A stretch of 57,025 nt of DNA. It comes from Escherichia phage PLYYY01. Positions 41,235 to 54,900 of the stretch are shown here, in pieces; within the stretch, counting starts at the first letter, position 1, and every line of letters starts with the position of its first letter. Below the pieces are notes generated by a model. The model saw nothing but the letters and a program-made list of their open reading frames with translations. It was not told where the DNA came from and ran no database searches. The position numbers and the translations under genes were made by a program. The stretch lies in sequence record MZ911962.1. One strand, written 5' to 3'.

Positions 41235-41909
41235 TTATGCGTCCAGGCCGTTGTATTTGCGCCAGGCGTAGAACTGAATGGCTACCGTTGTTCCGTTGTA
41301 AGAAGGCATTGCAGCTTTCATCTCTTTCAGCTCCGGCGTGCGGCCCAGCTCCTTCAGAAGCTTGTCACCCATTGCCCACACTTCGGCAGTTTTTCCTTTC
41401 AGCGGCTTGCGAGCGCCATTTTTGAAATCACAGCGAGCAGCTTTTGCATCCTGTTTTGGTGCGGCAGCTTTTGGCTCTTCAATTTTGATTTCAGAAACCT
41501 GCGTGGCAGCTTTTGCGTGTTTCATATCTTTCTCTTCCTCCTGCTCCAGAGCTTCGAGGCAGCTTTTGACAATTTCCGGATTTACCATCGGACGCAGTAC
41601 CGAGACGCTAGCAGCTGGCGCGGCGGTCGGTGCTGGGACTTTCTGCTCGGGCTTTTGCGCTTTTTCGTGATCGCGCAGAACCTGAAGGACTTCCTTTTCG
41701 ATGATGTAAAAACCGATATCGTCCTGATGGATTAACTGTTCGTGTGCGTCGCGTGCAACCTGGCCCCAGCGGGTCTTAAGAGCGCGGCGTGCATTCGTTT
41801 TCATGGTGTAGCGCATTTTGTCCTGTTCGCGGTGAGTTACTTTAGACATGGTATAGCTCCTTTCGTTAAAGTTAGTTTGCTTATTATTGCCTACCGTGAT
41901 AGTAGGCAA
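41235..41909 (-). CDS. hypothetical charged protein sharing a C-terminal domain with the 24834-25646 product
   Basis: Likely start at internal ATG 41849 (AAGGAG 7 nt upstream). Lys/Ala/Glu/Pro-rich middle. C-terminus ends FYAWRKYNGLDA, like YARWKKFNG in the other protein. Confidence 0.5.
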   Translation of the reverse strand: MPTITVGNNKQTNFNERSYTMSKVTHREQDKMRYTMKTNARRALKTRWGQVARDAHEQLIHQDDIGFYIIEKEVLQVLRDHEKAQKPEQKVPAPTAAPAASVSVLRPMVNPEIVKSCLEALEQEEEKDMKHAKAATQVSEIKIEEPKAAAPKQDAKAARCDFKNGARKPLKGKTAEVWAMGDKLLKELGRTPELKEMKAAMPSYNGTTVAIQFYAWRKYNGLDA

Positions 41910-41917
41910 GGTATAAG
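41881..41917 (-). promoter_or_regulatory. promoter-like element with dyad symmetry (minus strand)
   Basis: Minus-strand reading gives TTGCCT, a 16-17 nt spacer and A/T-rich -10-like AATAAT. The -35 is embedded in the inverted repeat TTGCCTAC-N7-GTAGGCAA. About 30 nt upstream of the 41849 start. Confidence 0.4.
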
Positions 41918-41922
41918 AAAAC

Positions 41923-42171
41923 TTATTGCACGATTGCTACGAAATCGACGGTTGCGATGTCCATGCTAGCGAAAGCAACGATGCCATAGTCGGTGTCGTG
42001 TTCGGCGGTAAACGCTTTGAGGAACTGCTGTACTGCTGCTTTATGGTTAAGCGTTACGTCGATAGTATAGTCCCAGCTATAGACTTTGCGCTTGCCAAAA
42101 CCTTTAACTGCAATGCGTGCGCCTTTGGTGTTAGTTGGTGCCAAAAATTTGGTGACGATAGAAGTAGCCAT
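41923..42171 (-). CDS. hypothetical protein
   Basis: 82-aa ORF with ATG at 42171 preceded by GAGGA. Confidence 0.45.
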   Translation of the reverse strand: MATSIVTKFLAPTNTKGARIAVKGFGKRKVYSWDYTIDVTLNHKAAVQQFLKAFTAEHDTDYGIVAFASMDIATVDFVAIVQ

Positions 42172-42200
42172 GATGTATATCCTCGTTTTGTTTAAGTTGA

Positions 42201-42239
42201 CTTATTATTGCCCAGTCGGATCAACTAGGCAAGATATAA
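42201..42239 (-). promoter_or_regulatory. second copy of the promoter-like element (minus strand)
   Basis: Shares CTTATTATTGCC...AGGCAAG(A/G)TATAA with the 41881-41917 element; same position relative to the downstream start codon. Confidence 0.4.
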
Positions 42240-42240
42240 A

Positions 42241-42453
42241 TCACTTAATTTGTACCAAATCGTATTCTTTGTAAATTTCGCTAATGTACATATCGAACTG
42301 GCCCATTAAGAAGATTTCGGCCTCCTCCCAGCTTGGGGCAGATACATAACCAGCTATTTTACCGGACGCGAGTTCCACTAATTTGAATTCCATGATGCAA
42401 CCCTTAATGTGGTTAAGCAGTATTGCTTTGTTGAAGTAATAATAGCCTTGCAT
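42241..42453 (-). CDS. hypothetical protein
   Basis: 70-aa ORF; real start may be the internal Met (MEFKLVEL) at 42393. Confidence 0.35.
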   Translation of the reverse strand: MQGYYYFNKAILLNHIKGCIMEFKLVELASGKIAGYVSAPSWEEAEIFLMGQFDMYISEIYKEYDLVQIK

Positions 42454-42714
42454 CGTGATATTGAATAGGCCAAAAGTGCTATTTTGATATTGTTTTGCAT
42501 CTAGTGAAAATTATGCTTGCCTTGCATGTTTAGCACTAATGGCCTAACTAACATCACACCATCTGGAGTATTCGCGCGGGCACACACACATACATATAAA
42601 GCTGCCAAATATTTTTATAAAAAGATGCAAAAAGGTGTAGACACATGATCGGTCTAGCACTACTATATACACATACCGCAAGGGTACTACAAATTAACTT
42701 AAAGGGTTCACATC

Positions 42715-42999
42715 ATGTCCATCGTTACTATGTCGTTCTTCGACTATTGCAATAACGAAAAACAAATTATCGTTAACCTGCAAAAAGGATCTGTTGTCGC
42801 ACGCAATGCTAACCGCCAATGCATCGCGCTAACCGATTTTGCTTTCCGGCTTAACGTGGACAACACCACCGCCAAAAATATCGTTCACGATACGGCGATG
42901 GAAGCCGCTCATGCTGCGAAGGATAAAGGTATCCGCGCAGCACGCGAAATCATGCACAAAGCGCTCGGCATCACGTTCTTCGTTGGCATTAAGGGGTAA
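42715..42999 (+). CDS. hypothetical protein
   Basis: 94-aa ORF, first plus-strand gene after the divergent AT-rich region 42454-42714. Confidence 0.4.
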   Translation: MSIVTMSFFDYCNNEKQIIVNLQKGSVVARNANRQCIALTDFAFRLNVDNTTAKNIVHDTAMEAAHAAKDKGIRAAREIMHKALGITFFVGIKG

Positions 43000-43447
43000 C
43001 TACTATGGCACGCAAATACTCGCTTACACGCGCGCAGCACGCGCTATTATTGCAGGTTATGCGCATGGAGTACGAGGAGACTACATGGGCGCAGGCTATG
43101 CAAACTGGGCGCGAGTTCTACGCGCAATTAATAGCACAAAATGCCTAGACAACATGATCGGTCTGGTGGATACTACACACATCAACCAAACAACGGGGGT
43201 AAACAAAATGCGTAGTTTCAAATGTGTAAGCGTAAACGATAATGCTAAGGCTAGTGCTAAGGGTCTGTTCACAGTAGGTAATGTGTATGACTTCAACATG
43301 GAAAGTTATATACACATGACCCTCACGGGCGTAATGTTCGGCGACGTTGGTGCGGTGCGCTGCGAATTAAACAAGTACACGGAAAAGGAATATGCTCTTA
43401 TCAGCCGCTACACGGGCGAGCCGTTAGCTGTGTTCCATGCAGCTTAA

Positions 43448-43881
43448 GCTATAACGCACACAGCGCCACGCTAGCGAGCTAATGCACAAAGGTAATGGTA
43501 ATGCATTAGCTCGGGCGAAACAGGCGCACAGCGTCGCGCACAGCTCGCACAGCGCACACCGACCCACGCAGGCCCAGCCTCGCGACCCCACCCATCCTTT
43601 TCCAGGTACTTGGATCGCTGGGGCGTGCCCTATCCATCCTGATAGTAAGTCCACGCCTAAATCTCACCCATCACATAGCCTATCCACCTACATCCATGAC
43701 CCCACCTACCTTCTTTTTGAATATATTGCGCTCATCCTTTCTAAATATATGGATTTTGGTAGTAAATTCTAAGTCGTCAACGTATAATTCGTCTTGTAGC
43801 TACTCCATAGCTACCATCTTTAAGCGGATGCGACCAATTTCTATCAATTCTTACCAGTTTTAGAGCATCAAGGAGGTATTT
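43448..43881. promoter_or_regulatory. non-coding region with a long palindrome and GC-rich short repeats
   Basis: 11-bp perfect inverted repeat GAGCTAATGCA / TGCATTAGCTC at 43476-43512. Repeated CGCACAG units around 43520-43560. C-rich repeats (TATCCATCC, TATCCACCTACATCCATGACCCCACCTACC). Palindrome GTAGCTA-N5-TAGCTAC about 43797-43815. Confidence 0.4.
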
Positions 43882-44139
43882 ATGTGCGACTCCAGTGCAA
43901 GCACCACGACAAACTCCTCCAGCAATGTGGTTACAGAGGTAAATGCAATGCGATTAGGTCCATATCGCGGCTATTATGGTCGTGCTGCATGGAATGACGC
44001 TACTCAACGTTTTGAAGGCTGGATTATCTGCCCGGAACGTGTTAAATTTCACTCCGTAAAAGAGAAAAATATCGTTCTTAATTTTCAAAAATGTGTCACT
44101 AAATATGTAGAGGAGCAAGAAGAATGTCTTATCAATTAG
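43882..44139 (+). CDS. hypothetical early protein
   Basis: 85-aa ORF with AAGGAGG before the ATG. Confidence 0.45.
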   Translation: MCDSSASTTTNSSSNVVTEVNAMRLGPYRGYYGRAAWNDATQRFEGWIICPERVKFHSVKEKNIVLNFQKCVTKYVEEQEECLIN

Positions 44140-44480
44140 CATTAGAAGCTGCTGGATGCGAAGTATTAGATTTTGTTGAGTTTGGTTGTTATCAGGGTGA
44201 ATGGCTTGCCCTGATAAGAAAAGATGGTGTATTGGGGGTTTGTGAAGGTTCTTATGGATCGTGCTCGGGTTGTGATTCATTTGAAGCTGAATTTGGCTGG
44301 CATAATGAGGAAAGTCCCGATTATCAGAAACGTCTTGCTGAATTTGGTGAAAGTTACTTACCAGCTAACAGCTTTGAAGAAATGATCGCCAAACTTCAAA
44401 AGGATGTTGAGAATTATGATTGGGATGACGATTATAAATCTATGTTAGAAACTGTTCGTCAATGGCAGAAAAATATATAA
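44124..44480 (+). CDS. hypothetical protein with Cys cluster
   Basis: 118-aa ORF; CxxC-like pairs (GCYQ, CSGCDS). Confidence 0.4.
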   Translation: MSYQLALEAAGCEVLDFVEFGCYQGEWLALIRKDGVLGVCEGSYGSCSGCDSFEAEFGWHNEESPDYQKRLAEFGESYLPANSFEEMIAKLQKDVENYDWDDDYKSMLETVRQWQKNI

Positions 44481-44743
44481 AGGAAAGAAGAATGCGTGTA
44501 GGGGATGGTGAAAAGGTTGTTAACTATTTCGGGACTCAGGTTATAGTACCTGCTTGGGTAAATTGGCTCGCGGTTGATAAATGTGAAGAGCTCTATGCTT
44601 ACGAAAACGAGCCTTATGTAGATAAATCTGATGATTGCGACCGTTGGTATGAGGATACGGGTGAATCCATCTTTATTGGCGAGTTTCCTTTCGAAGAAGG
44701 TCGTTGGGTAAATTCTTTAGTTAATGTTAGTTCGGAGGCTTAA
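44462..44743 (+). CDS. hypothetical protein (member of small paralog family)
   Basis: 93-aa ORF; PAWVNWLAVDKCEELYAYENEP resembles the PWANFIAVDADGKVHCYDAKP motif of the 45074 product. Confidence 0.4.
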   Translation: MAEKYIKERRMRVGDGEKVVNYFGTQVIVPAWVNWLAVDKCEELYAYENEPYVDKSDDCDRWYEDTGESIFIGEFPFEEGRWVNSLVNVSSEA

Positions 44744-45022
44744 ATGCGTGTAGAAGAGATTGTTGAAGGTAAAGAGTATCGTTTACTGACCGATATTGGC
44801 GGTGTTGGGTATACTCCGGGCGATGGTGTTGAGTTCCGGGAACTGAAAGCTGGTTCTATTGTCACTGTTAATAAGGTGGTGTTTGATCTGCATAGCCTTT
44901 TCGGGCAGTGGAACCATACTGTAATTGTTAGCCAGGGTAGCGATGAATACGATGAAGAAGAGGATGCTTACGAAATTAGTTATACTGGTCTTGTAGGCGC
45001 CAATTTCCTGGAAGAAGTATAA
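44744..45022 (+). CDS. hypothetical protein
   Basis: 92-aa acidic ORF. Confidence 0.4.
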   Translation: MRVEEIVEGKEYRLLTDIGGVGYTPGDGVEFRELKAGSIVTVNKVVFDLHSLFGQWNHTVIVSQGSDEYDEEEDAYEISYTGLVGANFLEEV

Positions 45023-45073
45023 TTATCAATCTATAATGGGCTCTACGGAGCCCTTAATTATCTGGAGGTTGTT

Positions 45074-45376
45074 ATGCTTTATTTAGGAATGGATGAAACT
45101 GGACACGAAATTCCTTCTGTTAACAAGGAGACGCAAGTATTTACCGACTATTATGGGTTTGCTGTCCCTGTTGAGCCCTGGGCTAACTTTATCGCTGTAG
45201 ACGCAGACGGTAAAGTACATTGTTATGACGCTAAACCTTCTTGCTATGAATCTGGTAAGCAATGGATGCTTAGCGTATACGGTTTGCATGTGCGCTACTG
45301 CGGTGAAGTTGACCTTGAAGGTATGGACTGGCGCGATACTCTAATGGAAATTAAAGAATATAGGCTTAACCCATGA
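45074..45376 (+). CDS. hypothetical protein (paralog of 23803-24057 product)
   Basis: 100-aa ORF; shared C-terminal motif VDLEGMDWRDTLMEI. Confidence 0.45.
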   Translation: MLYLGMDETGHEIPSVNKETQVFTDYYGFAVPVEPWANFIAVDADGKVHCYDAKPSCYESGKQWMLSVYGLHVRYCGEVDLEGMDWRDTLMEIKEYRLNP

Positions 45377-45597
45377 AAATATTCATGATATTAGGTGCTA
45401 TAATTGCCGCTTTCGTTGTATTTGCAATTGTAGACTCTAAAGAAATGGAGCGGCAAAACTGCCAACGTACTGGTAACAGCCGGGAGGATATTATTTGGCA
45501 ATATATTTACGATGCAAAAGGTAATGTTGTGTCGACATATCCTCAGGTTATTACCGAGTATGAATATAAATGCAATGACCGTAACAGGTGGAGATAA
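45373..45597 (+). CDS. hypothetical membrane-anchored protein
   Basis: 74-aa ORF with N-terminal hydrophobic segment IFMILGAIIAAFVVFAIV. Confidence 0.4.
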   Translation: MKIFMILGAIIAAFVVFAIVDSKEMERQNCQRTGNSREDIIWQYIYDAKGNVVSTYPQVITEYEYKCNDRNRWR

Positions 45598-45869
45598 TAA
45601 TGGAAGTTACTGAAGCTGCTAAACGCATGGTGAAATTCTATGTTGGTTCTGATTCACCTTTAATTCGCGCTTTTGGTCAGGAGCTTTATGTTTTCCAGGG
45701 TGATCGAGAGGAGGCTGAAGAGGTCGCTCAGAAGATTCTTGATTTACAAGAAAAAGCTAAACGGGCGGATGCCCTGGAAGCTGTAGCAAAGGACTTCCTG
45801 CGTCGTAATAAATATGGTCCTTTGTTCTATCGTGATTTGTATAACCGTTTTAAGGAGATTGTGAAATGA
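45588..45869 (+). CDS. hypothetical protein
   Basis: 93-aa ORF. Confidence 0.4.
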   Translation: MEIIMEVTEAAKRMVKFYVGSDSPLIRAFGQELYVFQGDREEAEEVAQKILDLQEKAKRADALEAVAKDFLRRNKYGPLFYRDLYNRFKEIVK

Positions 45870-46135
45870 TTACTGCTCAAGAAGCTCGTGAATTAAGTGA
45901 TAAGCTGGATATTAGTGAAGATATTGCAGTCATTAGTGATAGTATTCGCGCAGCTGCTACAAAGGGATACAATAAAGTATTACTGGTAACTAAATACGGA
46001 GCTGTTGGTAATCCTGACACTCAAGACCCGACCACTATGAAGATTGCTAAATGGTTAGCTGATTCTGGTTTTACTGTCCTATACTATCCTTCAATGGACC
46101 AACGGGATAACGAGCGTACTGAGGTGGCCTGGTGA
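45866..46135 (+). CDS. hypothetical protein
   Basis: 89-aa ORF overlapping the upstream stop. Confidence 0.4.
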   Translation: MITAQEARELSDKLDISEDIAVISDSIRAAATKGYNKVLLVTKYGAVGNPDTQDPTTMKIAKWLADSGFTVLYYPSMDQRDNERTEVAW

Positions 46136-46202
46136 TTGAAGAAAATATCAAATATTGGAAAGGTTTTATTGACGAAATGCTGAAACCATTGGAGAAGAAA
46201 TA

Positions 46203-46595
46203 ATGCTATTAGTTGTCACCGGAGGGCGTAATTTTAAACATGTAGAGTATATTTATGCTCAACTGGATAAGTTGCATATGCAAAGAAGGATAACCACACT
46301 TCGCCACGGTGACGCTGACGGTGTTGACCGCATTTGCGCACATTGGGCGGAGCGGAACGGTATTAAGACGGAGGCGTTTCCTGCGCCGTGGGACAATCTT
46401 TCACTGCCAAATACCAAGATACGATATAACGCCAAAGGAGCTTATAATGCGCAAGCAGGCGCTTACCGTAATCAATTAATGCTGGATACTGATCCTAAAC
46501 CAGATCACGCTATTGTGTTTCCGGGCGGAGCTGGTACTATGGACATGTACAGACGGATTAAAGCATCCGGTATTCCTTACACATTAGCGGAGTAA
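46203..46595 (+). CDS. hypothetical Rossmann-like protein (SLOG/DprA-like fold suspected)
   Basis: 130-aa ORF with LLVVTGGRNF...HGDADGVD...IVFPGGAGT pattern reminiscent of nucleotide-binding SLOG-type domains. Tentative. Confidence 0.3.
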   Translation: MLLVVTGGRNFKHVEYIYAQLDKLHMQRRITTLRHGDADGVDRICAHWAERNGIKTEAFPAPWDNLSLPNTKIRYNAKGAYNAQAGAYRNQLMLDTDPKPDHAIVFPGGAGTMDMYRRIKASGIPYTLAE

Positions 46596-46598
46596 ATA

Positions 46599-47069
46599 AT
46601 GGCTGACGTTAAAACTATTGTTGATGCAATGGACGAATCCAAAGACTGCCAACTGAAGAAGTCGTTTGAAGTAAAACAGGTTACAGAGACTCAGTTGATA
46701 AGCAACTTTGCGCGTTATTGCGGATTGGGTCGCGGGAAGGACTGGAATGGGCTCATTGTAATGCCTACATCGCAGATCCTGCTATATATCCGCAACGTTG
46801 TAGAAGATGTTCTGCGTCTTCAGGTTGAAATCGGTGATGTAGAAATTAACATGACCGCGAGCTCTACCATTGTGGTTAAATGGCAGTCGGGCGAGACACT
46901 TCGTTTAGAAGCGTGCCATTGCGCTAAGAGCTTGCATCACCTACGCGGTTGTCACTACCAGTTTGTTGGGTTTGTGCATCTACAAGGGTTAAGCGGGCGT
47001 ACGGCGATGGTAGCGCGTTTGCTGCTGCGTCCTTATAATAACGAGCCGGAAGTCATATACGAGGCATAA
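46599..47069 (+). CDS. hypothetical protein
   Basis: 156-aa ORF. Confidence 0.4.
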   Translation: MADVKTIVDAMDESKDCQLKKSFEVKQVTETQLISNFARYCGLGRGKDWNGLIVMPTSQILLYIRNVVEDVLRLQVEIGDVEINMTASSTIVVKWQSGETLRLEACHCAKSLHHLRGCHYQFVGFVHLQGLSGRTAMVARLLLRPYNNEPEVIYEA

Positions 47070-47070
47070 G

Positions 47071-47277
47071 ATGGAAACTCCATTGGCTAAACAAATGATA
47101 GAGCGTGCTGATCGGGACGGTTTGTCCGAAGACCATGCTATGCGTCGAACTGCACAAGCGTTTGACGAAATTAGCGTTAATTACGCTATGGGAAAGAGCA
47201 CGCCTAAAGGCTTACTGGGCGCATGGGCTCGCGCTCGTCGCTGCTGGTGCAACTACACCGGAGAACCGCTTGTATGA
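47071..47277 (+). CDS. hypothetical protein
   Basis: 68-aa ORF; stop overlaps the next start (ATGA). Confidence 0.35.
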   Translation: METPLAKQMIERADRDGLSEDHAMRRTAQAFDEISVNYAMGKSTPKGLLGAWARARRCWCNYTGEPLV

Positions 47278-47696
47278 TTAAACATGTCAAACAGCCAACT
47301 TTAAATACATGCGTTTCTGCGTGTTTGGCAATGATCCTTAATAAACCTGTTGAGAAGGTGATTGAGGAATTTCATAGTCGTGATTATAACAACTGGGAAA
47401 TCACTATCAGCGAATATTTGACTAAAAACGGCGTCCAGCATCATTGTTCAGAAGGTGGTGGGCGCGAAACTTTGCATATGGGAGGTTTGTTCCTGTGCAC
47501 GGTGCCAAGTCTTAATATTCCGGGCGCATTGCACCAGATTGTGATTGATATGACAGATCACAAGTTTATTGTGCATGATCCAATTAAAGGATGGGAAGGT
47601 AAAAAGTTCTATGTTGGTCCGGATCAAGATCCTGAAGAGCCTGGAGCTTTTATCATTCATACTTGGGTCAAAGACGTTGAAATCCTACCTTATTAA
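47274..47696 (+). CDS. C39-like (papain-fold) cysteine peptidase
   Basis: Start at ATG 47274. Motif QPTLNTCVSACLAMIL matches the C39 catalytic Cys region. Downstream HQIVIDMTDHKFIVHDP matches the His/Asp region. Confidence 0.5.
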   Translation: MIKHVKQPTLNTCVSACLAMILNKPVEKVIEEFHSRDYNNWEITISEYLTKNGVQHHCSEGGGRETLHMGGLFLCTVPSLNIPGALHQIVIDMTDHKFIVHDPIKGWEGKKFYVGPDQDPEEPGAFIIHTWVKDVEILPY

Positions 47697-47758
47697 TTTT
47701 CTTGCTATCACATAACCCTTCATTGTATTGTGTACCCATCGAATAAGAGGGGTACACA

Positions 47759-47944
47759 ATGACCAAACTATACGCCGGATTGTTTTTATTTGCGACGTTA
47801 ATGTTCGCTGGGCTTTATACCTATACAGTAGTCGAACAACCTTCCACGGTTATCCGAATCTTTGCAAGTACAGGACTGTGCATCTGCCTTATTCTGTTTG
47901 TTTTATGTATTGTTATTATCCAAGACCAAAGGAAAATTAAATGA
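47759..47944 (+). CDS. hypothetical small membrane protein
   Basis: 61-aa ORF with two hydrophobic transmembrane-like segments. Confidence 0.4.
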   Translation: MTKLYAGLFLFATLMFAGLYTYTVVEQPSTVIRIFASTGLCICLILFVLCIVIIQDQRKIK

Positions 47945-48405
47945 CCACAATTGCGTTTGATGGAAAAGTATTAGCTGCGGACCGTGGAGTTATGCGCGGG
48001 GAAGCTGTGACTGCTTATAAGAAAGTTCATAGCGTAAATGGACATCGTGGACGGTTTTTACTGGGCTTGTGCGGCCTTACAGCATTTACCGATCAGGTGT
48101 TGCGTTATTTTAATAGCGCGGAACCTGTTAAGTTCCCTGATATTAAACTTTACAGCAAAGATGATGATTACGGGCAAACTTGCGGTCTTGCGGTTACTCC
48201 GGAAGGTACTTGCCATTTTATTTATAATGATGGTACTTTGAGCGAACCCATGCTGGATGGATGGGGATCTGAGGGTAGCGGTTGTGTGTTTGCTGCTGGC
48301 GCGTTAGCTGCTGGTGCAAGTGCGAGCGAAGCTATTGAGTTAGCAATTAAACACACCACATGCGCATTCCTGGGAGTTGATACAATATCATTTGAGGGTT
48401 TTTAA
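47941..48405 (+). CDS. HslV-like N-terminal-nucleophile hydrolase (proteasome beta-subunit fold)
   Basis: ATG 47941 preceded by AAGGA. N-terminus MTTIAFDGKVLAADRG (Thr right after Met, as in HslV). C-terminal GSEGSGCVFAAGALAAG...AIELAIKH resembles the HslV GSGG region. Confidence 0.45.
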   Translation: MTTIAFDGKVLAADRGVMRGEAVTAYKKVHSVNGHRGRFLLGLCGLTAFTDQVLRYFNSAEPVKFPDIKLYSKDDDYGQTCGLAVTPEGTCHFIYNDGTLSEPMLDGWGSEGSGCVFAAGALAAGASASEAIELAIKHTTCAFLGVDTISFEGF

Positions 48406-48666
48406 ATGACTACATTCAGTCACCTGATCCCACCTGCTTATCATAGTAAGGTAGTTGACCACGGGACGCATGTTGTAATTGGTGGCGAAATCTTTATCAC
48501 AGATAACGAGGAAATCGCCATTGCAATTATTGACAGCACTCAGCATGACTTTATGGTTATCCTGCAACACGAACCAGATAACTTCACTTTTTACTCCAGC
48601 TACGGGGTCGATAAAGGTGGAAAAAGCCTTGTCAGCTGGTACATTAGCGAGTGGTTTGACGGGTAA
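48406..48666 (+). CDS. hypothetical protein
   Basis: 86-aa ORF. Confidence 0.35.
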   Translation: MTTFSHLIPPAYHSKVVDHGTHVVIGGEIFITDNEEIAIAIIDSTQHDFMVILQHEPDNFTFYSSYGVDKGGKSLVSWYISEWFDG

Positions 48667-48748
48667 TCTCCTTAGATCAATTCTCCTTGCGCCGTATCAA
48701 GTTTCTCTGTTACCCTTGAGTGGTTCATGTCAAGCGGAGGAACTCGAT

Positions 48749-49186
48749 ATGGCACTTCAACCTCGTGGTATTCGTAATAACAATCCAGGTAATATTCGCT
48801 GGGGTGACAATTGGCAGGGATTGGTCCCTGTTGATAAGCGGACCGACAAATCTTTTGCACAATTTACGCAACCGATCTACGGCATCCGCGCTCTGGCGAA
48901 AGTCCTGACCAACTACACCAAACGTGAAGGCGTGCCCAATGTGGGTAAGAAAAACATCGACACTGTACGTGAAATTATCGCTCGCTGGGCCCCGCCTAAC
49001 GAAAACGATACGGAAGCGTATATTCGTTCTGTTGCCAAAGCAATTGGTGTTGAACCTAACGATCCAATCAATGTCTTCGACAAGACGATAATGTCAGGTT
49101 TGGTGAAAGCAATCATTCGTCATGAAGATGGCATGATGCCTTATACTGATGACGTAATCGACCGCGCTATTGCAATGGTAATTTAA
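48749..49186 (+). CDS. putative endolysin (call by position in lysis cassette)
   Basis: ATG 48749 preceded by GCGGAGG. 146-aa product begins MALQPRGIRNNNPGNIRWGDNWQG. Immediately upstream of a holin-like gene and the spanins. Confidence 0.4.
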   Translation: MALQPRGIRNNNPGNIRWGDNWQGLVPVDKRTDKSFAQFTQPIYGIRALAKVLTNYTKREGVPNVGKKNIDTVREIIARWAPPNENDTEAYIRSVAKAIGVEPNDPINVFDKTIMSGLVKAIIRHEDGMMPYTDDVIDRAIAMVI

Positions 49187-49189
49187 CTG

Positions 49190-49567
49190 ATGGGGCGTCA
49201 GCCCCTTTTTATTGGAGGGAACATGTTCAACTCATCAAACGAACATTGGGCAGTTCTAGCGGGGTTTGCTCTGATTTCCCTCATTGGGGGAGCTCTCGGT
49301 TACGTCATGCGCACAATTGACGCTGGTAAGAAAGTACGGTTAAGCATTGCATGTCTTGAAGGCTTATCCGCCGCGTTCTTCGGCGTTATAATGTACGCGA
49401 TCTACAGGGAGTTTAATATCAGCCTTTGGTTCGCTTTTGGCCTCGCTGGCCTATTCGCTTGGGCGGGTTCACGTGCTACGTTAAAAGCTCTAAAGTCGCT
49501 TCTAGCATCGCGGACAGGGATCAAACTCGACTCAGAGGACTGCAAACATGAAAATGATTCTAAATAA
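49190..49567 (+). CDS. holin-like membrane protein
   Basis: 125-aa ORF with three hydrophobic transmembrane-like segments and a charged C-terminus; lies between the endolysin-like and spanin genes. Confidence 0.45.
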   Translation: MGRQPLFIGGNMFNSSNEHWAVLAGFALISLIGGALGYVMRTIDAGKKVRLSIACLEGLSAAFFGVIMYAIYREFNISLWFAFGLAGLFAWAGSRATLKALKSLLASRTGIKLDSEDCKHENDSK

Positions 49568-50024
49568 CTTCTTCGGCTTCATAAAAGCTAAGCCCCGTCT
49601 GTTTATCGAGTACCTGATGATCGGCGCGGTTGTGTTTTTATGCGGAGTGGCCGCCTACCTGTGGTCACAGAACGAGCTTAACAAATCAAATTTAAGTTTG
49701 GCTGAAGAACGTTTAACCGTTGTGGAGAAAGACAATGCAAATCTGGGCGAGGCTGTTGTATTTCTTGCTGCACAAAGGGAGAAGGACACGGACTCTTTCA
49801 AGAAACTAACTTCTGCAATTCAAGATGAACAACATAACCACAAGTTGCTTCAGGACAAGTTGCAGACACTGGAGAAAAGCAATGCCGACGTCAAAGCTTA
49901 TCTTAACGAGCGTATTCCTGATGATTTGCGCAGGTTGCTCGACGCAGACTCAACCTCCCCCAGCTCCACAGATAGTGAAGGTAAGACTACCAGCGCATCT
50001 ACTGGTGGAATGTCGGGAAGTTGA
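49548..50024 (+). CDS. i-spanin (Rz-like)
   Basis: 158-aa ORF with N-terminal transmembrane segment, coiled-coil periplasmic region and a Ser/Thr-rich C-terminus. Confidence 0.6.
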   Translation: MKMILNNFFGFIKAKPRLFIEYLMIGAVVFLCGVAAYLWSQNELNKSNLSLAEERLTVVEKDNANLGEAVVFLAAQREKDTDSFKKLTSAIQDEQHNHKLLQDKLQTLEKSNADVKAYLNERIPDDLRRLLDADSTSPSSTDSEGKTTSASTGGMSGS

Positions 50025-50187
50025 GAAAATTCCTTTGGTTTACACAAGAGATATTATCCGACGTTTACAGGATACAGAAACTGCTCTGACTGAATGTAAG
50101 CTAAGGGTTAAGGAAATCATACGCTATGAAGCTGAAAATGTTTCGCTTGATTTTGTAGGATCAAGCAATTATATTCAGCCTAAATAG
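49882..50187 (+). CDS. o-spanin (Rz1-like lipoprotein), overlapped with i-spanin in the +1 frame
   Basis: ATG 49882 preceded by GGAGAAAAG. Product MPTSKLILTSVFLMICAGCSTQTQPPPAPQ has a signal-like segment with Cys (non-canonical lipobox) followed by a Pro-rich stretch. Confidence 0.55.
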   Translation: MPTSKLILTSVFLMICAGCSTQTQPPPAPQIVKVRLPAHLLVECREVEKIPLVYTRDIIRRLQDTETALTECKLRVKEIIRYEAENVSLDFVGSSNYIQPK

Positions 50188-50207
50188 CAATAAGAAGGGG
50201 AGCTTCC

Positions 50208-50765
50208 ATGAACGGGGCAAGTCAAGAGCAATATGATCGTGACTGGACGAACTATATCCAGTATGCAAATAGCTTGTCCGCTGACGAGATGGCAATACGT
50301 GACAAAGTTGTTGCTGAGTATATGTTCGACTACAATTGGACTAACGCTTGCATGAGATGCGGGTTCAATGCTATGTTTGCACAGGAGCTTGGCCAACGCT
50401 TTGCCACGGACTGTTACGTTCGATGGAAGCTCAAGGAGATTGAAAGATCCCGTGTTCAACGTACTTCTGAGCAAGCTAACATTGAAGCAGACCTTGAGCG
50501 TCAGCATATCATTGAAGCATTAAAACGTGAAGCTCATTATACAGGACCGGGATCTTCTCAAGCTGCTAGAGTAGCTGCATTGGGCAAGCTTGCACAAATT
50601 TATGATTTGGATGCGCCCAAGAAGGCTAAAATTGATGTTACTAACAGAGGCGGCGTAATGATAGTCCCTGCTGTAGCAAATATTGACGAATGGGAAAAAA
50701 CTGCATCCGAGTCTCAACAACGACTAGTTAAAGAGACTGAAGATGGAGCTAAACCGACAACCTGA
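50208..50765 (+). CDS. terminase small subunit
   Basis: 185-aa ORF directly upstream of and overlapping the large terminase gene; assignment by position. Confidence 0.5.
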   Translation: MNGASQEQYDRDWTNYIQYANSLSADEMAIRDKVVAEYMFDYNWTNACMRCGFNAMFAQELGQRFATDCYVRWKLKEIERSRVQRTSEQANIEADLERQHIIEALKREAHYTGPGSSQAARVAALGKLAQIYDLDAPKKAKIDVTNRGGVMIVPAVANIDEWEKTASESQQRLVKETEDGAKPTT

Positions 50766-52302
50766 TAACATGCCGCGAGTAGTCTGGAAGCCACATCCAG
50801 GTTCACAGACGCTCGCTTTATCCTGTCCTGCTGATATCATTTTATACCACGGTACTCGCGGTCCTGGAAAGACGGACTGTCAGCTTATGCGTTTCCGTAA
50901 GAATGTTGGCGTAGGGTACGGTAAATTCTGGAAGGGTATTATATTCGACCGTGAATATAAAAACCTTGATGACCTTGTAACTAAGTCACAGCGTTGGTTT
51001 CCTGAATTTAAAGACGGTGCTAAATTCCTTAGTTCCAAGTCTGATTATAAATGGGTTTGGCCTACTGGGGAAGAATTGCTGTTCCGTGTTGCTTGCAAAG
51101 AAAAGGATTATTGGTCTTATCATGGTCACGAATACCCGTTTATCGGATGGAACGAATTAACAAAGTATCCGGACGGGCGTTTGTTTGAAGCAATGATGTC
51201 CTGTAACCGTTCATCCTTCCTACCCGAAGATAATCCAATTATCAATCCGGACGGTACTGTTACATATTTACCAGACATTCCTCTGGAAGTGTTTGCTACC
51301 AGTAACCCGTTTGGTGCGGGGCATAACTGGGTTAAGAAACGCTTCATTGACGCTGCACCGATGGGTAAGATACTCAGGAAAACTACGCGAGTGTTTAACC
51401 CGCGGACGCAGAAAGAGGAAGATGTGGTTACGACGCAATGTCATATCTTCGGATCTTACCGTGAGAACAAAAACCTAAGTCCGAAATATATTGCAGAGCT
51501 TATGTCTATCACAGACCCGAACAAACGCGCTGCATGGTTGGGCGGTAGCTGGGATATCACCTCCGGTGGTATGTTCGATGATCTGTGGCGTAGCACTGTT
51601 CATAAAATACGTCCATTTCCAATTCCTTCAAGCTGGAAGATTACACGTTCTTTCGACTGGGGTTCTTCAAAACCATTCTCTGTTGGCTGGTGGGCTATTA
51701 GTGATGGTTCGGATGTTGTACGTGAAGATGGTACTACATTCTCTACTGTTCGCGGTGACTTATTCCGTATTAACGAGTGGTACGGCACTAACGGTAAAAC
51801 AAACGAAGGTCTACATTTGCTGGACTCAGAGATTGCAAGCGGTATACTGGAGCGGGAATTGGCCTGGGGTATACACGATCGTGTAGTTCCTGGACCTGCG
51901 GATAACTCTATTTGGGATCTGGAGAACAATAACTCTACCGCCGCAACAATGGCGAAGAAAATCCGTCTTAACGGCAAGCTGTATAACGGCATCCATTGGA
52001 AGAGAAGTGATAAATCTGCTGGGTCGCGTAAACGCGGATGGCAGAAAATGCGTGAGTTTCTTAAAGCTGCATTGCGGGAAGATGCAAACGGTAAGCCTTT
52101 GCCGGGACCACGTGAAAATCCAGCAATGTATGTTTTCGATAACTGCAATTATTTCTTTGAACTTGTTCCAAGTCTTCCGCGCGATGAAGTAGATCAGGAC
52201 GACGTTGATACGGAATGTGAAGACCATATGGGCGATGAAGTACGTTATATGGTTCTGGATCAAGCTGTTTATACAGGTGTCGGTAAAACTATCGGTATTT
52301 AA
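50743..52302 (+). CDS. terminase large subunit
   Basis: 519-aa ORF with Walker A GTRGPGKTD and C-terminal nuclease-like acidic motifs. Confidence 0.85.
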   Translation: MELNRQPDNMPRVVWKPHPGSQTLALSCPADIILYHGTRGPGKTDCQLMRFRKNVGVGYGKFWKGIIFDREYKNLDDLVTKSQRWFPEFKDGAKFLSSKSDYKWVWPTGEELLFRVACKEKDYWSYHGHEYPFIGWNELTKYPDGRLFEAMMSCNRSSFLPEDNPIINPDGTVTYLPDIPLEVFATSNPFGAGHNWVKKRFIDAAPMGKILRKTTRVFNPRTQKEEDVVTTQCHIFGSYRENKNLSPKYIAELMSITDPNKRAAWLGGSWDITSGGMFDDLWRSTVHKIRPFPIPSSWKITRSFDWGSSKPFSVGWWAISDGSDVVREDGTTFSTVRGDLFRINEWYGTNGKTNEGLHLLDSEIASGILERELAWGIHDRVVPGPADNSIWDLENNNSTAATMAKKIRLNGKLYNGIHWKRSDKSAGSRKRGWQKMREFLKAALREDANGKPLPGPRENPAMYVFDNCNYFFELVPSLPRDEVDQDDVDTECEDHMGDEVRYMVLDQAVYTGVGKTIGI

Positions 52303-52313
52303 CTGGAGGGTAT

Positions 52314-53810
52314 ATGGGTATTGATGCAACTCACCCGCTATATGACAAGTGGAAGGATGCATGGGTTAAGTGCAACGACTGCTATGAGGGTGAAGATAAA
52401 ATTAAGGAAGAAGGTGTTAAATATCTACCACCTTTAGCTTCCATGATTATTGATGGGATGAATAATCCTAATGATTTGGGCTTTCAACGTTGGCTTGCTT
52501 ATCGTCTGCGTGCTAACTTCCCTGACGATTATTCAAGTGCTGTTACAAACAATTTAGGTCTGCTGCACCAGAAGCCGCCTACAATCCAGCTTCCTCCTGA
52601 AATGGAGTACATGCGGGAGCTGTGTACTGCGGACGGTGAAGACATTATTGCTCTGCTACGTCGCATCAACGAAATGCAGTTAAAAAATGGACGTTTGGGC
52701 CTGCTGCTGGACTTGCCAAAAGGTGAGGATGTAAATAACAGACCGTATATTAGCGTTTATGATGCTTTATCCATTATCAACTGGGATGATGGTAAAGATG
52801 AATTAGGCAATATCAACTTGAACATGGTTGTTCTGGATGAAAGCGGGCCTGTACGTGTCAATCAGTTTGACTGGAAAGAAGAGAAGCGTTATCGCGTCCT
52901 GCAATTAGGCCCGATGGACACAGATGAAGTTGCAGGTGGAGCGGTCTACTCCCAGCATTTATTTATCAACAATACCAATTATGATGAAGGGCAAATGATT
53001 GCTCCTTATTATAAAGGTAATACGCTGGACGAAATACCTTTCCAGTTTGTTAATACAACAGATATTACACCAGCACCGGAAGCGCCTCCATTGTTGGGGC
53101 TAGCTAACATCTGCCTAAGCATGTACCGAAGCGACGCTGATTACCGTCAAAGTCTGCATATGCAGGGTCAGGACACGTTAGTTGTTGTTGGTGGCTCGGG
53201 TGAGAATGGAGATAAAGCCCCTCAGCGCATCGGTCCCGGAGCGGTCATTAACGTTGCTCTTGGGGGTGACGCTAAATATGTAGGCGTTAGCGGTGACGGT
53301 TTGTCCGAGCAACGCCTTGCCCTAGCAGCGGATAAGCAGGAAGCTCAGATTAAAGCTGGGCAGATGGTAAACAACACCAAGAGCACGCAGGAATCAGGCG
53401 AAGCTATGAAAACGCGTATTGCTGCGCGTACCGCTAGCCTGATTCGAATTGCGTATACTGGCGCGGCAGGTTTGGAAAACTTGCTGAAGGTCTGCGCTAA
53501 ATGGATGGGTGCTGATCCAGAGAAAGTTGTGGTTAAGCCTAATCTTGAATTTACCAAGAGTATGTTCAATGGTCAGGACTTTGTTCAAATTATTACTGCA
53601 CGCAACCTTAAGGCTCCGATCAGCTTGCAGTCTATTCATGGCTGGCTTGTTGATCAGGGCTTAACCACACTAAGCTTTGAAGAAGAAATGGCAATTCTTG
53701 AAGAAGAGCTTAAGAAGTGGCCTCTGCCCGATGATGCTAAAGCTGATTTAAACGCAGAGCAGCAAGTAAACAAAGATCCTAAGGAAGACGACGCTTCCGA
53801 TAAAGAATAG
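52314..53810 (+). CDS. portal protein
   Basis: 498-aa ORF immediately after the large terminase with an acidic C-terminal tail; assignment by order and size. Confidence 0.65.
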   Translation: MGIDATHPLYDKWKDAWVKCNDCYEGEDKIKEEGVKYLPPLASMIIDGMNNPNDLGFQRWLAYRLRANFPDDYSSAVTNNLGLLHQKPPTIQLPPEMEYMRELCTADGEDIIALLRRINEMQLKNGRLGLLLDLPKGEDVNNRPYISVYDALSIINWDDGKDELGNINLNMVVLDESGPVRVNQFDWKEEKRYRVLQLGPMDTDEVAGGAVYSQHLFINNTNYDEGQMIAPYYKGNTLDEIPFQFVNTTDITPAPEAPPLLGLANICLSMYRSDADYRQSLHMQGQDTLVVVGGSGENGDKAPQRIGPGAVINVALGGDAKYVGVSGDGLSEQRLALAADKQEAQIKAGQMVNNTKSTQESGEAMKTRIAARTASLIRIAYTGAAGLENLLKVCAKWMGADPEKVVVKPNLEFTKSMFNGQDFVQIITARNLKAPISLQSIHGWLVDQGLTTLSFEEEMAILEEELKKWPLPDDAKADLNAEQQVNKDPKEDDASDKE

Positions 53811-53905
53811 TTGCAACTTGCAAGTTGATCGGTTTATATTAACGAACACGGGGCTGGGACGGCTCAGCTCCAAAAACGTCACACGGGTGACAACGGAGAT
53901 AAGAA

Positions 53906-54778
53906 ATGAAAAAGAGTTCTGTAGCTATTAGTGTTGGTTTTGCTCTAATTAATCCACGCGCTCGCGGTGAAGGTGATGTGGAACTGGAATACGAATATGC
54001 ATCTGCGGAAGAGATCCCGGCAGAGTTTGCTGCTCTTTACGCAGAGCAGGGTGGTAAATACGTTCTTGCAAAAGTTAAAGGTGTAGCCCCTGCTGATAGC
54101 GTTCGTCGTCTGGAAAGTGCATTAGCAAAAGAACGTAACGATCATCGTCAGGTGAAGCAACAGATTAGCGCACTTGGGCGTCCGGTTGAAGAAGTTCTTG
54201 CGGACCTTGATCGTATCCCTCAACTGGAAGCTGCCGCTAACGGTAAAGGTACTCCGGAAGACATCGAAAAGATGGTTAAAGCCCGTCTTGCGCCGCTTGA
54301 GCGCCAATTGCAAACTGTTATCACCGAGCGTGACACGGTTAAGCAGGAAATTGAAGGATACCGCACTCGCGAAACTAAAGCGAAGATTAAAGATGCAGTT
54401 ATTGCCGCTGCTTCTGGTGCTAAATTGCGTCCATCTGCTATCGAAGACGCTGTAACTTATGCACAGTTGCAGATGACCGTCGACGAGAACGGCAATGTGG
54501 TTACGAAAGATGGGGCTGGTGTAACTCCTTACCTGACTCCGGCGGACTGGCTGAACGAAATCCTTCCGAAGCGTCCGCACTGGGTTGAAGGATCTGCTGG
54601 TGGCGGTGCATCTGGTCCGGGTGCTGGCGGCCATCACGGTGAAGACCCATACAGTCACGACGGCTGGAACATCTCTAAGCAGATGAACCTCTGGAAAACT
54701 AACCAATCTTTAGCTAAACGTTTAGCTGAAAAGAATGGCGTAGACCCGCTGAAGCCTGTACGTCCTGCTAAGAAATAA
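53906..54778 (+). CDS. scaffolding protein (putative)
   Basis: 290-aa ORF, Ala/Glu/Lys-rich helical-looking, between portal and major capsid genes. Confidence 0.45.
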   Translation: MKKSSVAISVGFALINPRARGEGDVELEYEYASAEEIPAEFAALYAEQGGKYVLAKVKGVAPADSVRRLESALAKERNDHRQVKQQISALGRPVEEVLADLDRIPQLEAAANGKGTPEDIEKMVKARLAPLERQLQTVITERDTVKQEIEGYRTRETKAKIKDAVIAAASGAKLRPSAIEDAVTYAQLQMTVDENGNVVTKDGAGVTPYLTPADWLNEILPKRPHWVEGSAGGGASGPGAGGHHGEDPYSHDGWNISKQMNLWKTNQSLAKRLAEKNGVDPLKPVRPAKK

Positions 54779-54792
54779 GTTGACATCCCGAC

Positions 54793-54825
54793 GTCCCTGA
54801 TGTTAAGTTTCAACACATCAGGGAC
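54793..54825 (+). promoter_or_regulatory. long perfect hairpin upstream of major capsid gene
   Basis: 11-bp perfect stem GTCCCTGATGT / ACATCAGGGAC with 11-nt loop, no following T-run. TTGACA hexamer at 54780-54785 just upstream. Confidence 0.4.
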
Positions 54826-54900
54826 ACGGGTTCCTAAACAGCCTTCCACGGGGAAAGGCTACCAACAGTAAACAAATCAATCCTTTTCCTGGAGACAAGT

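What the first reader, a model, noticed from the sequence alone, without database searches (positions are those of the whole stretch)
47274..48405. HslV-like Ntn-hydrolase and C39-like cysteine peptidase encoded next to the lysis cassette
Seen directly: the 47941-48405 product begins MTTIAFDGK (Thr right after the initiator Met, as in HslV and proteasome beta subunits) and carries a GSEGSG...AGALAAG region aligned to the HslV GSGG segment. The 47274-47696 product has NTCVSACLAMIL and H-x-I-V...HDP resembling the catalytic Cys and His regions of C39 peptidases. A 61-aa two-transmembrane protein lies between them. Inference: a phage-encoded proteolytic module, possibly host takeover, anti-defence or processing of a phage or host peptide. 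Such a pairing is not a standard phage module as far as I know.
Basis: partly seen in the sequence, partly recalled or inferred. Interest (0 to 1): 0.6.

Follow-up and report, generated by a model that had tools for sequence, protein, structure and literature searches.

The report
Two small phage-encoded peptidases, often linked
This E. coli phage of the Seurat/CAjan group really does encode a miniature HslV/proteasome-type threonine peptidase and a stand-alone C39-type cysteine peptidase. Both look catalytically intact and both belong to widespread phage families, but their targets are unknown and their position next to the lysis genes appears incidental.

Summary

Neither gene is tied to lysis. 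Mini-HslV genes in other phages mostly sit beside terminase, portal or connector genes. The C39-like gene often sits in the lambdoid nin region, and also occurs in Ackermannviridae and Vibrio phages. The pairing recurs: 13 of 68 C39-like viral loci carry a mini-HslV downstream, and one locus has the reverse order. It is not obligate: 0 of 78 distant mini-HslV loci carry the C39-like gene.

The HslV-like gene is already annotated in databases (PHROG 1040, "putative protease"). The C39-like family (about 1,070 clusters) is essentially unannotated. The best mechanistic lead is the free C39 toxins Cpe1 and StbD-CT, which cut GyrB/ParE at Gly-Gly. Function remains inferred. Interest is moderate.

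The parts
47274..47696 (+). Stand-alone C39-type (clan CA) cysteine peptidase, 140 aa. Proposed oxyanion Gln7 and catalytic Cys13, His87 and Asp102-Pro103, plus a second Cys17 (CxxxC).
47726..47761 (+). Conserved RNA hairpin (12-bp stem) that buries the Shine-Dalgarno sequence and AUG of the 61-aa gene. A possible translational control point for the 61-aa and HslV-like genes.
   Evidence: MFE -20.1 kcal/mol, z -3.0, 1 of 200 shuffles as stable. The spacer is 100% identical in CAjan, SA80RD and slur01, although flanking genes differ by 3-11%. There is no covariation to test.
47759..47944 (+). 61-aa protein with two predicted transmembrane segments. Its stop codon overlaps the HslV-like start (ATGA), so the two are probably translationally coupled.
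   Evidence: ORF and sequence. Hydropathy. phrog_22841, unknown function. Found only in Seuratvirus-level relatives. In PSTCR7 the two peptidase genes overlap directly, and in JenP1 two different genes intervene.
47941..48405 (+). Mini-HslV: a 154-aa family T1 (proteasome-beta/HslV) N-terminal-threonine peptidase homologue. Thr2 becomes the N-terminus once Met1 is removed. Asp14, Lys28, Gly42/Gly45 and Gly112-Ser113-Gly114 are retained. Helix H2 is absent.
48406..48666 (+). 86-aa protein of unknown function. Its start codon directly follows the HslV-like stop codon (TAA ATG).
   Evidence: ORF. phrog_23528, unknown function, 6.5e-51. No Pfam, NCBIfam or PADLOC match.
47071..47277 (+). Variable 68-aa ORF whose stop codon overlaps the C39-like start (ATGA). 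It is present in some Seuratviruses and absent from CAjan, so it is not an obligate partner or substrate.
   Evidence: ORF. phrog_27185. Absent from the CAjan annotation, present in SA80RD.
48749..50187 (+). Context only: the lysis cassette. Endolysin 48749-49186, holin 49190-49567, Rz-like i-spanin 49548-50024, and an overlapping candidate o-spanin frame ending at 50187. It is followed by terS (50208), terL (50743) and portal (52314).
   Evidence: Pfam and PHROG matches. Annotations of relatives.

Best explanation
These are two separate, catalytically competent, soluble cytoplasmic peptidases. Each belongs to a widespread family of phage accessory proteins. They are transcribed in the rightward operon that runs on into the lysis and packaging genes.

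(1) The 140-aa protein is a free-standing C39-type cysteine peptidase with a Gln/Cys/His/Asp active site. By analogy with all characterised C39 enzymes, it most likely makes a single specific cut at a Gly-Gly-type site in a cytoplasmic protein. The closest functional analogues are Cpe1 and StbD-CT, free C39 toxins that inactivate GyrB and ParE at HAG|GK. The most likely role is therefore inactivation or processing of a host protein, whether a housekeeping or a defence protein, during infection.

(2) The 154-aa protein is a miniature HslV. Host methionine aminopeptidase exposes Thr1, which acts with Lys and Asp and the Gly-Ser-Gly loop as in HslV and proteasome beta subunits. It lacks helix H2, which in HslV lies on the HslU-docking face. 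It probably acts without canonical HslU docking, as a self-assembling peptidase.

The two genes are linked in Queuovirinae-like phages and sporadically elsewhere. They may therefore act on the same pathway, for example clipping followed by degradation, but each clearly also works alone.

Shown: folds, conservation of catalytic residues, purifying selection, distribution and linkage. Inferred: activity, substrates, oligomeric state, timing of expression and any cooperation.
For: Folds and profiles.

Catalytic residues:
- HslV-like: M1, T2, D14, G45, G112 and G114 are invariant and K28 is at least 90% conserved in 22 sequences down to 30% identity. They align with E. coli HslV Thr1, Asp17, Lys33, Gly45/48 and Ser124.
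- C39-like: Q7 99%, C13 98%, and H87, D102 and P103 100% in 156 representatives that share no more than 50% identity. The spacings are Gln-6-Cys, Cys-74-His and His-15-Asp. StbD-CT has Cys183, His258 and Asp275.
- The second Cys, at +4 from the catalytic Cys, is 93% conserved. StbD-CT also has it, as Cys183/Cys187.

Selection: the HslV-like gene has 6-16 nucleotide differences from relatives and no amino-acid change. The peptidase block is the best-conserved part of the region.

Stand-alone architecture: almost all of the 150 listed relatives, out of 1,074 hits, are 135-160 aa. No signal peptide is evident in either sequence.

Precedent for free cytoplasmic C39 peptidases with one specific Gly-Gly target: PMC12136450 and bioRxiv 10.64898/2026.05.07.723447.

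Linkage:
- The two genes overlap in Providencia phage PSTCR7.
- They are two genes apart in Nonagvirus JenP1.
- The order is reversed in metagenomic locus L012.
- 13 of 68 C39-like viral loci carry a mini-HslV downstream, spread over about 8 branches of the C39-like tree.
Against: - No biochemical or genetic data exist for either family. Literature searches found only annotations.
- The C39-like family is undetectable against C39 PDB sequences at the sequence level and falls below the Pfam threshold. Substrate specificity therefore cannot be transferred from C39 enzymes.
- One C39-fold protein has been reported with glycosidase rather than peptidase activity (PMC13642728, title and abstract only).
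- HslV, BPH and Anbu have little or no activity without a partner, so a lone mini-HslV might be inactive or need an unknown activator.
- Most members of each family occur without the other, which argues against an obligate two-enzyme pathway.
- The phage encodes its own replisome, and no topoisomerase was seen among the ten large early-region proteins scanned. Destroying host gyrase could therefore harm the phage.
Confidence: 0.6

Rival explanations
1. Capsid or virion maturation. The mini-HslV, possibly with the C39-like enzyme, processes scaffold, major capsid or other virion proteins, standing in for a conventional prohead protease.
For: - The window's head module has portal, scaffold and major head protein but no recognisable prohead protease.
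- In distant phages the mini-HslV lies directly upstream of terS/terL/portal. About 40 of 84 loci have a terL about 1 kb downstream.
- In other loci it lies after scaffold and capsid genes, or between head-tail adaptor Ad1 and head-closure Hc1.
Against: - Scaffold-using phages commonly need no protease.
- The C39-like gene in lambdoid phages lies in the early nin region, not in the head module.
- In the window both genes are separated from the head genes by the lysis cassette and terminase.
- Neither protein is reported as a virion component in the literature reached.
- Known prohead proteases have other folds (established knowledge).
Confidence: 0.12
2. Manipulation of host HslUV. The mini-HslV either captures the host HslU unfoldase to redirect ATP-dependent degradation, or poisons HslVU by forming mixed or decoy rings. 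This would stabilise phage proteins or block protease-triggered defences such as toxin-antitoxin systems.
For: - HslV is its closest structural and sequence relative.
- Several relatives are annotated 'ATP-dependent protease'.
- No HslU gene is reported in phages that carry HslV-like genes.
- Phage inhibitors of host proteases (T4 PinA, T7 gp4.5 against Lon) are a known strategy (own knowledge).
Against: - The region equivalent to HslV helix H2, on the HslU-facing side, is deleted or remodelled.
- The positions aligned with HslV Lys28 and Arg35 are not conserved. Their role in binding the HslU tail is recalled from memory, and the alignment near the gaps is uncertain.
- A pure decoy would not need an invariant Thr1/Asp/Lys/Gly-Ser-Gly set.
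Confidence: 0.15
3. Lysis accessory. The C39-like enzyme is a cell-wall peptidase, like pseudomurein endoisopeptidase PeiR or NlpC/P60-type enzymes. With the 61-aa membrane protein it assists the neighbouring lysis cassette.
For: - The genes sit immediately upstream of endolysin, holin and spanin.
- A small two-transmembrane protein lies between the two peptidase genes.
Against: - The sequence shows no signal peptide or cell-wall-binding domain.
- In most other phages the gene is nowhere near lysis genes: the nin region, Ackermannviridae, Vibrio podophages.
- The 61-aa gene is confined to Seuratviruses.
- The cassette already has a complete endolysin, holin and spanin set.
- The top structural matches are cytoplasmic C39 domains.
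Confidence: 0.05
4. Deconjugase. The C39-like peptidase removes ubiquitin-like or Gly-terminal conjugates made by bacterial defence systems (Bil-type, or CBASS Cap2-type). The mini-HslV degrades the released or marked proteins.
For: - C39 enzymes cut after Gly-Gly, which is also the hallmark of Ub and Ubl C-termini.
- In one metagenomic locus a mini-HslV lies close to an Acb2/Tad1-like anti-CBASS gene.
Against: - The DUB-like hits score clearly lower than the C39 hits.
- There is no PADLOC or anti-defence family match.
- No experimental precedent was found.
- The link to defence systems rests on my own knowledge only.
Confidence: 0.08

Closest known systems
HslV (ClpQ), MEROPS family T1B, the peptidase of bacterial HslVU
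   Different: - 154 aa against about 176 aa.
- Helix H2 (about HslV residues 64-90) is replaced by a loop, and the loop after H3 is shortened.
- There is no hslU partner gene.
- It is below the Pfam PF00227 threshold (15.4 against 22.4 bits) and has no NCBIfam HslV match.
- It is encoded by phages, mostly beside packaging genes.
BPH and Anbu (bacterial proteasome homologues with no known ATPase partner)
   Different: BPH and Anbu are about 185-230 aa cellular proteins with full helices. The phage protein is smaller and forms its own sequence family, PHROG 1040.
C39 peptidase domains of PCAT/AMS ABC transporters (PCAT1, ComA, LahT)
   Different: The phage protein is not fused to, or encoded next to, an ABC transporter. 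No adjacent double-glycine leader peptide is conserved. Sequence similarity is below detection.
Cpe1 and StbD-CT: free C39/papain-like interbacterial toxins that cleave GyrB and ParE at HAG|GK
   Same: - Small soluble C39 domains acting in the bacterial cytoplasm on a specific protein target.
- A second Cys sits four residues after the catalytic Cys.
   Different: The toxins are C-terminal domains of T6SS or CDI effectors and have cognate immunity proteins. The phage protein has neither a delivery domain nor an identified immunity gene. Its substrate is unknown and there is no significant sequence similarity.
Other phage HslV/proteasome-like genes (jumbo phages, Caulobacter phages; PHROG 1040)
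   Same: The fold is the same, and all are functionally uncharacterised 'HslV without HslU' phage genes.
   Different: Many of these are longer (170-280 aa) and only 12-27% identical. The mini-HslV subgroup has a characteristic MT[TC]IA[WF]DG N-terminus.

Membership tests
HslV / proteasome beta (MEROPS T1, Pfam PF00227) | Ntn-hydrolase (alpha-beta-beta-alpha) proteasome-type fold | tested here: met
HslV / proteasome beta (MEROPS T1, Pfam PF00227) | N-terminal nucleophile Thr1, exposed after removal of Met or a propeptide | tested here: met
   The sequence starts M-T-T. M1 and T2 are invariant in 22 homologues. Removal of Met by methionine aminopeptidase is inferred from established specificity, not shown here.
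HslV / proteasome beta (MEROPS T1, Pfam PF00227) | Catalytic helper residues Asp17, Lys33 and Gly-Ser(124/129)-Gly | tested here: met
   hhalign to E. coli HslV aligns D14, K28 and G112-S113-G114. D14, G112 and G114 are invariant, K28 is at least 90% conserved, and S113 is sometimes Gly or Ala. 3D geometry was not measured.
HslV / proteasome beta (MEROPS T1, Pfam PF00227) | Curated sequence-model membership (Pfam gathering score; NCBIfam HslV) | tested here: not met
   PF00227 scores 15.4 bits against a cut-off of 22.4. No NCBIfam hit. However, 14 of 22 family members hit PF00227, with a best E of 4.1e-7, and the family profile hits PDB HslV at 2.5e-9.
HslV / proteasome beta (MEROPS T1, Pfam PF00227) | Works with the HslU AAA+ partner (hslVU operon, HslU C-tail pocket) | tested here: inconclusive
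   No hslU gene was seen in the parts of the window that were examined. The helix-H2 region is deleted. Use of host HslU cannot be excluded by computation.
HslV / proteasome beta (MEROPS T1, Pfam PF00227) | Self-compartmentalising double-ring oligomer | not testable with these tools
   No multimer prediction was available. SEC-MALS or cryo-EM is needed.
Peptidase C39 (MEROPS C39, Pfam PF03412) | Papain-like fold in the reduced C39 topology | tested here: met
Peptidase C39 (MEROPS C39, Pfam PF03412) | Oxyanion Gln and a Cys/His/Asp catalytic triad | tested here: met
   Q7, C13, H87 and D102 are 98-100% conserved in 156 representatives. The spacing is like StbD-CT Cys183/His258/Asp275. The assignment rests on motif and fold, not on a residue-level structural superposition.
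Peptidase C39 (MEROPS C39, Pfam PF03412) | Curated sequence-model membership | tested here: not met
   PF03412 scores 13.9 bits against a cut-off of 22, over residues 3-24 only. The best family member reaches E 0.005. No PDB sequence hits, even with a 110-sequence profile.
Peptidase C39 (MEROPS C39, Pfam PF03412) | N-terminal domain of, or partner to, a bacteriocin/peptide ABC exporter with a double-glycine leader substrate | tested here: not met
   It is a stand-alone 140-aa protein. Relatives are almost all 135-160 aa. Its neighbours are phage genes, with no ABC transporter.
Peptidase C39 (MEROPS C39, Pfam PF03412) | Cleavage after Gly-Gly/Ala/Ser | not testable with these tools
   This requires a protease assay or N-terminomics.
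Cpe1 / StbD-CT topoisomerase-cleaving C39 toxins | Delivery domain (PAAR or CdiA) and a cognate immunity protein | tested here: not met
   It is a single-domain protein. No immunity-like partner is conserved next to it across lineages.
Cpe1 / StbD-CT topoisomerase-cleaving C39 toxins | Cleaves GyrB and ParE at HAG|GK | not testable with these tools

The most novel reading that the evidence does not exclude
The C39-like peptidase and the mini-HslV form a phage-encoded two-step proteolytic system that works without HslU. The C39 enzyme makes a specific Gly-Gly cut in a key host protein, such as GyrB or ParE as the Cpe1/StbD toxins do, or in a defence or ubiquitin-like conjugate. The miniature proteasome-like ring then destroys the products. 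This would be a compact host-takeover or anti-defence module, shared by Queuovirinae-like phages and assembled independently in others.
Probability: 0.12. Interest if true: 0.7.

Novelty: new variant of a known kind. Interest (0 to 1): 0.42.

Why it matters
Phage-encoded 'HslV without HslU' genes are annotated in many genomes, but none has a known substrate or role.

The stand-alone C39-like family is large: about 1,070 clusters at 50% identity, and 195 sequenced phages. These include Ackermannviridae, lambdoid phages, and phages of Vibrio, Pseudomonas and Erwinia. Its catalytic tetrad is essentially invariant, yet PHROGs lists it as 'unknown function' and Pfam does not capture it.

If these enzymes cleave defined host proteins, they would be a new class of phage host-takeover or anti-defence effectors. 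The free C39 toxins do exactly this with GyrB and ParE. They could also be useful sequence-specific proteases.

The E. coli K-12 phages that carry both genes (CAjan, Seurat and the BASEL isolates) make the question directly testable.

Tried and rejected
- Sequence-only links for the C39-like protein led nowhere. phmmer, a 16-sequence profile and a 110-sequence profile against PDB sequences gave no significant hit.
I do not rely on it.
- NCBIfam and PADLOC gave nothing for any gene of the block.
- I considered the adjacent 68-aa ORF (47071-47277), which ends ...GLLGAWARARRCWCNYTGEPLV, as a double-glycine-type substrate. I rejected it as an obligate partner because the gene is absent from CAjan and other relatives that keep the peptidase.
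- I considered a lysis role because of position, and rejected it on the family's contexts elsewhere.
- I considered a prohead-protease role. It is not excluded and is kept as a rival.
- I looked for a phage topoisomerase that would make host-gyrase destruction harmless. None was found among the ten large early-region proteins scanned, so the GyrB/ParE idea stays an analogy only.
- Literature searches for functional work on phage HslV-like or phage C39-like proteins found only genome-annotation statements.
- The promoter and terminator scan of 41500-50800 was not above shuffled expectation, so it gives no information on timing.
Full report
**What the window is.** The 46.0-50.1 kb stretch is 93-97.5% identical in nucleotides to Escherichia phages OddieOddie, RCIP0359, CAjan, Seurat and about 30 others of the genus Seuratvirus, subfamily Queuovirinae. 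The leftward half encodes DNA polymerase, a processivity factor, helicase, primase, ligase and a DpdA-like transglycosylase. The rightward unit starts near 42.8 kb with about 20 small genes. It then carries the genes of interest, followed by the lysis cassette, terS, terL, portal, scaffold, major head protein and tail genes.

**Checking the observation.** The three ORFs are exactly as described. The 61-aa ORF overlaps the HslV-like start by ATGA. The 86-aa ORF starts immediately after the HslV-like stop codon. In this phage a 68-aa ORF overlaps the C39-like start by ATGA, but that ORF is missing from CAjan.

**The HslV-like protein (47941-48405).**
- Sequence evidence. PHROGs places it in phrog_1040 'peptidase HslV family' at 5.4e-32. 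Pfam Proteasome is sub-threshold for this sequence (15.4 against 22.4 bits) but hits 14 of 22 family members. A profile of 22 homologues, down to 30% identity, finds HslV chains in the PDB at 2.5e-9, followed by BPH and archaeal and eukaryotic beta subunits.
- Catalytic residues. hhalign against E. coli HslV aligns Thr1 with Thr2, Asp17 with Asp14, Lys33 with Lys28, Gly45/Gly48 with Gly42/Gly45, and Gly-Ser124-Gly with Gly112-Ser113-Gly114. In the family alignment M1, T2, D14, G45, G112 and G114 are invariant, and K28 is at least 90% conserved.
- Difference from HslV. The segment corresponding to helix H2 and the loop after H3 are shortened. The model has no helix between residues 59 and 79.
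- Selection. Against CAjan, SA80RD, slur01 and another relative the gene has 6-16 nucleotide differences and no amino-acid change. The block running from the C39-like gene to the 86-aa gene is 1.3-3.8% diverged, against 7-11% for flanking genes.

**The C39-like protein (47274-47696).**
- Sequence evidence alone is weak. Pfam C39 gives E 0.047 over residues 3-24. phrog_4049 is 'unknown function'. There is no PDB sequence hit, even with a 110-sequence profile.
- An exhaustive profile search found 1,074 cluster representatives, 670 of them at 1e-10 or better. Nearly all of the 150 listed are stand-alone proteins of 135-160 aa.
- In 156 of these, Gln7 is 99% conserved, Cys13 98%, His87, Asp102 and Pro103 100%, and a second Cys17 93%.
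- The Gln-6-Cys, Cys-74-His and His-15-Asp spacings resemble StbD-CT (Cys183, His258, Asp275). StbD-CT also has a Cys four residues after the nucleophile.

**Distribution and linkage.**
- tblastn finds the mini-HslV in 59 sequenced phages: Seuratvirus, Nonagvirus, Craquatrovirus, two Ralstonia phages and Klebsiella phages. It finds the C39-like protein in 195, including Ackermannviridae and phages of Vibrio, Pseudomonas and Erwinia.
- The gene arrangement varies. In Providencia phage PSTCR7 the two genes overlap by 4 bp. In Nonagvirus JenP1 two unrelated genes intervene. In metagenomic locus L012 the order is reversed.
- Of 68 C39-like loci from IMG/VR, 13 carry a mini-HslV within 5 kb downstream. 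Three are Seuratviruses. Four or five others are adjacent or overlapping, and the rest lie 0.4-4.4 kb away.
- On a C39-like tree the linked loci fall on about eight separate branches. They are concentrated among Queuovirinae-like siphophages and sporadic among lambdoid phages.
- Conversely, none of 78 distant mini-HslV loci has a C39-like gene within 5 kb. The pairing is recurrent but not obligate, and shared ancestry explains part of it.

**Genomic context elsewhere.**
- About half of the mini-HslV loci have a large terminase about 1 kb downstream. Others sit after scaffold and capsid genes, or between head-tail adaptor and head-closure genes.
- The C39-like gene is frequently in the lambdoid nin region, in the order CI, Ant, O-like, P/DnaC-like, C39-like, NinB, NinG, or among methylase and helicase genes.
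- Proximity to lysis genes in Seuratvirus is therefore incidental.
- BFVD contains 43 viral proteins with this proteasome-like fold at E of 1e-3 or better. These include jumbo phages and Caulobacter phages already labelled 'proteasome subunit beta' or 'ATP-dependent protease subunit'. One jumbo-phage paper notes HslV genes without HslU.

**How it most likely works.**
- Shown: both proteins have the folds and the conserved catalytic residues of active peptidases, are under purifying selection, and are single-domain. Neither shows a signal peptide in its sequence.
- Inferred for the C39-like enzyme: it acts in the cytoplasm and makes a specific Gly-Gly-type cut. This is what all characterised C39 enzymes do. 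It includes the free toxins Cpe1 and StbD-CT, which inactivate GyrB and ParE at HAG|GK (PMC12136450; bioRxiv 10.64898/2026.05.07.723447).
- Inferred for the mini-HslV: it uses Thr1 after Met removal. Loss of H2 makes canonical HslU docking doubtful.
- Whether the two cooperate is unknown.
- Rivals kept: a capsid-maturation protease, since no prohead protease is recognisable; hijacking or poisoning of host HslU; a deconjugase for Ubl-type defence systems; and a lysis accessory, which is unlikely.

**Novelty.** The HslV-like annotation already exists in public records. The C39 assignment appears only sporadically, as 'papain-like cysteine protease', 'peptidase C39 family protein' or 'cysteine protease' in three records. 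Three things are new here:
- the demonstration that the C39-like family is large, stand-alone and catalytically conserved;
- the recurrent but non-obligate linkage to a truncated HslV;
- the functional lead from the Cpe1/StbD toxins.

No experimental work on either phage family was found.

**Limits.**
- Model coordinates could not be inspected, so active-site geometry was not measured.
- No multimer modelling was possible.
- The co-occurrence counts are not corrected for phylogeny and depend on the seed patterns used.
- Gene calls in metagenomic loci were crude ORF picks.
- Statements about HslU-tail contact residues and about phage protease inhibitors rest on my own knowledge.

Noticed in passing
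window 47697-47761 (hairpin 47726-47761): The 62-nt spacer between the C39-like gene and the 61-aa gene folds into a 12-bp-stem hairpin (-20.1 kcal/mol, z -3.0) that buries the Shine-Dalgarno sequence and AUG of the 61-aa gene. The spacer is 100% identical in CAjan, SA80RD and slur01, although neighbouring genes differ by 3-11%. It may be a translational control element for the 61-aa, mini-HslV and 86-aa genes.
   Followed up: partly
window 47071-47277: A 68-aa ORF (phrog_27185) is translationally coupled to the C39-like gene. It is an indel among Seuratviruses: present in OddieOddie, SA80RD and KS_A3, absent from CAjan, Seurat and others, where the match breaks into two pieces at 95% coverage.
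   Followed up: partly
window 47274-48666 versus 46203-47069 and 48749-50024: The block running from the C39-like gene through the 61-aa and mini-HslV genes to the 86-aa gene is much better conserved at the nucleotide level (1.3-3.8% divergence) than the genes on either side (7-16%). This points to strong constraint or recent recombinational spread of the block.
   Followed up: partly
window 46203-46595: A 130-aa SLOG-family protein (Pfam YAcAr/YspA-related, 8e-18). Relatives variously annotate it as 'GTP-binding domain', 'putative DNA binding protein' or 'DprA'. It is possibly a nucleotide-binding or nucleotide-processing accessory protein.
   Followed up: no
window 52314-55962: The head module has portal, scaffolding protein and major head protein with no recognisable prohead protease between them. 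This keeps a maturation role for one of the two peptidases formally open.
   Followed up: partly
L024 2183-4012; L010 2304-3351; L009 2163-5456: In unrelated viral contigs the mini-HslV gene is inserted inside structural operons. In L024 it lies between head-tail adaptor Ad1 and head-closure Hc1. In L009 it lies after scaffold and capsid genes. In L010 it lies two genes downstream of an Acb2/Tad1-hairpin (anti-CBASS-like) gene.
   Followed up: partly
L110, L119-L125 and similar loci (about 29 loci): In lambdoid prophage-like contigs the C39-like gene occupies a fixed slot in the nin region, after the O-like initiator and P/DnaC-like loader and before NinB and NinG. This implies delayed-early expression there.
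   Followed up: partly
window 48749-49186: The endolysin has no Pfam match. It matches phrog_873 and tail or tape-measure lytic transglycosylase-like PHROGs, and some relatives annotate it as 'structural protein P5'. It appears to be an unusual endolysin type.
   Followed up: no
window 49825-50187: A candidate o-spanin frame overlaps the 3' end of the Rz-like gene and extends beyond it. It has a signal-peptide-like stretch, MPTSKLILTSVFLMICAGCS. CAjan annotates only a shorter 61-aa 'hypothetical protein' here.
   Followed up: no
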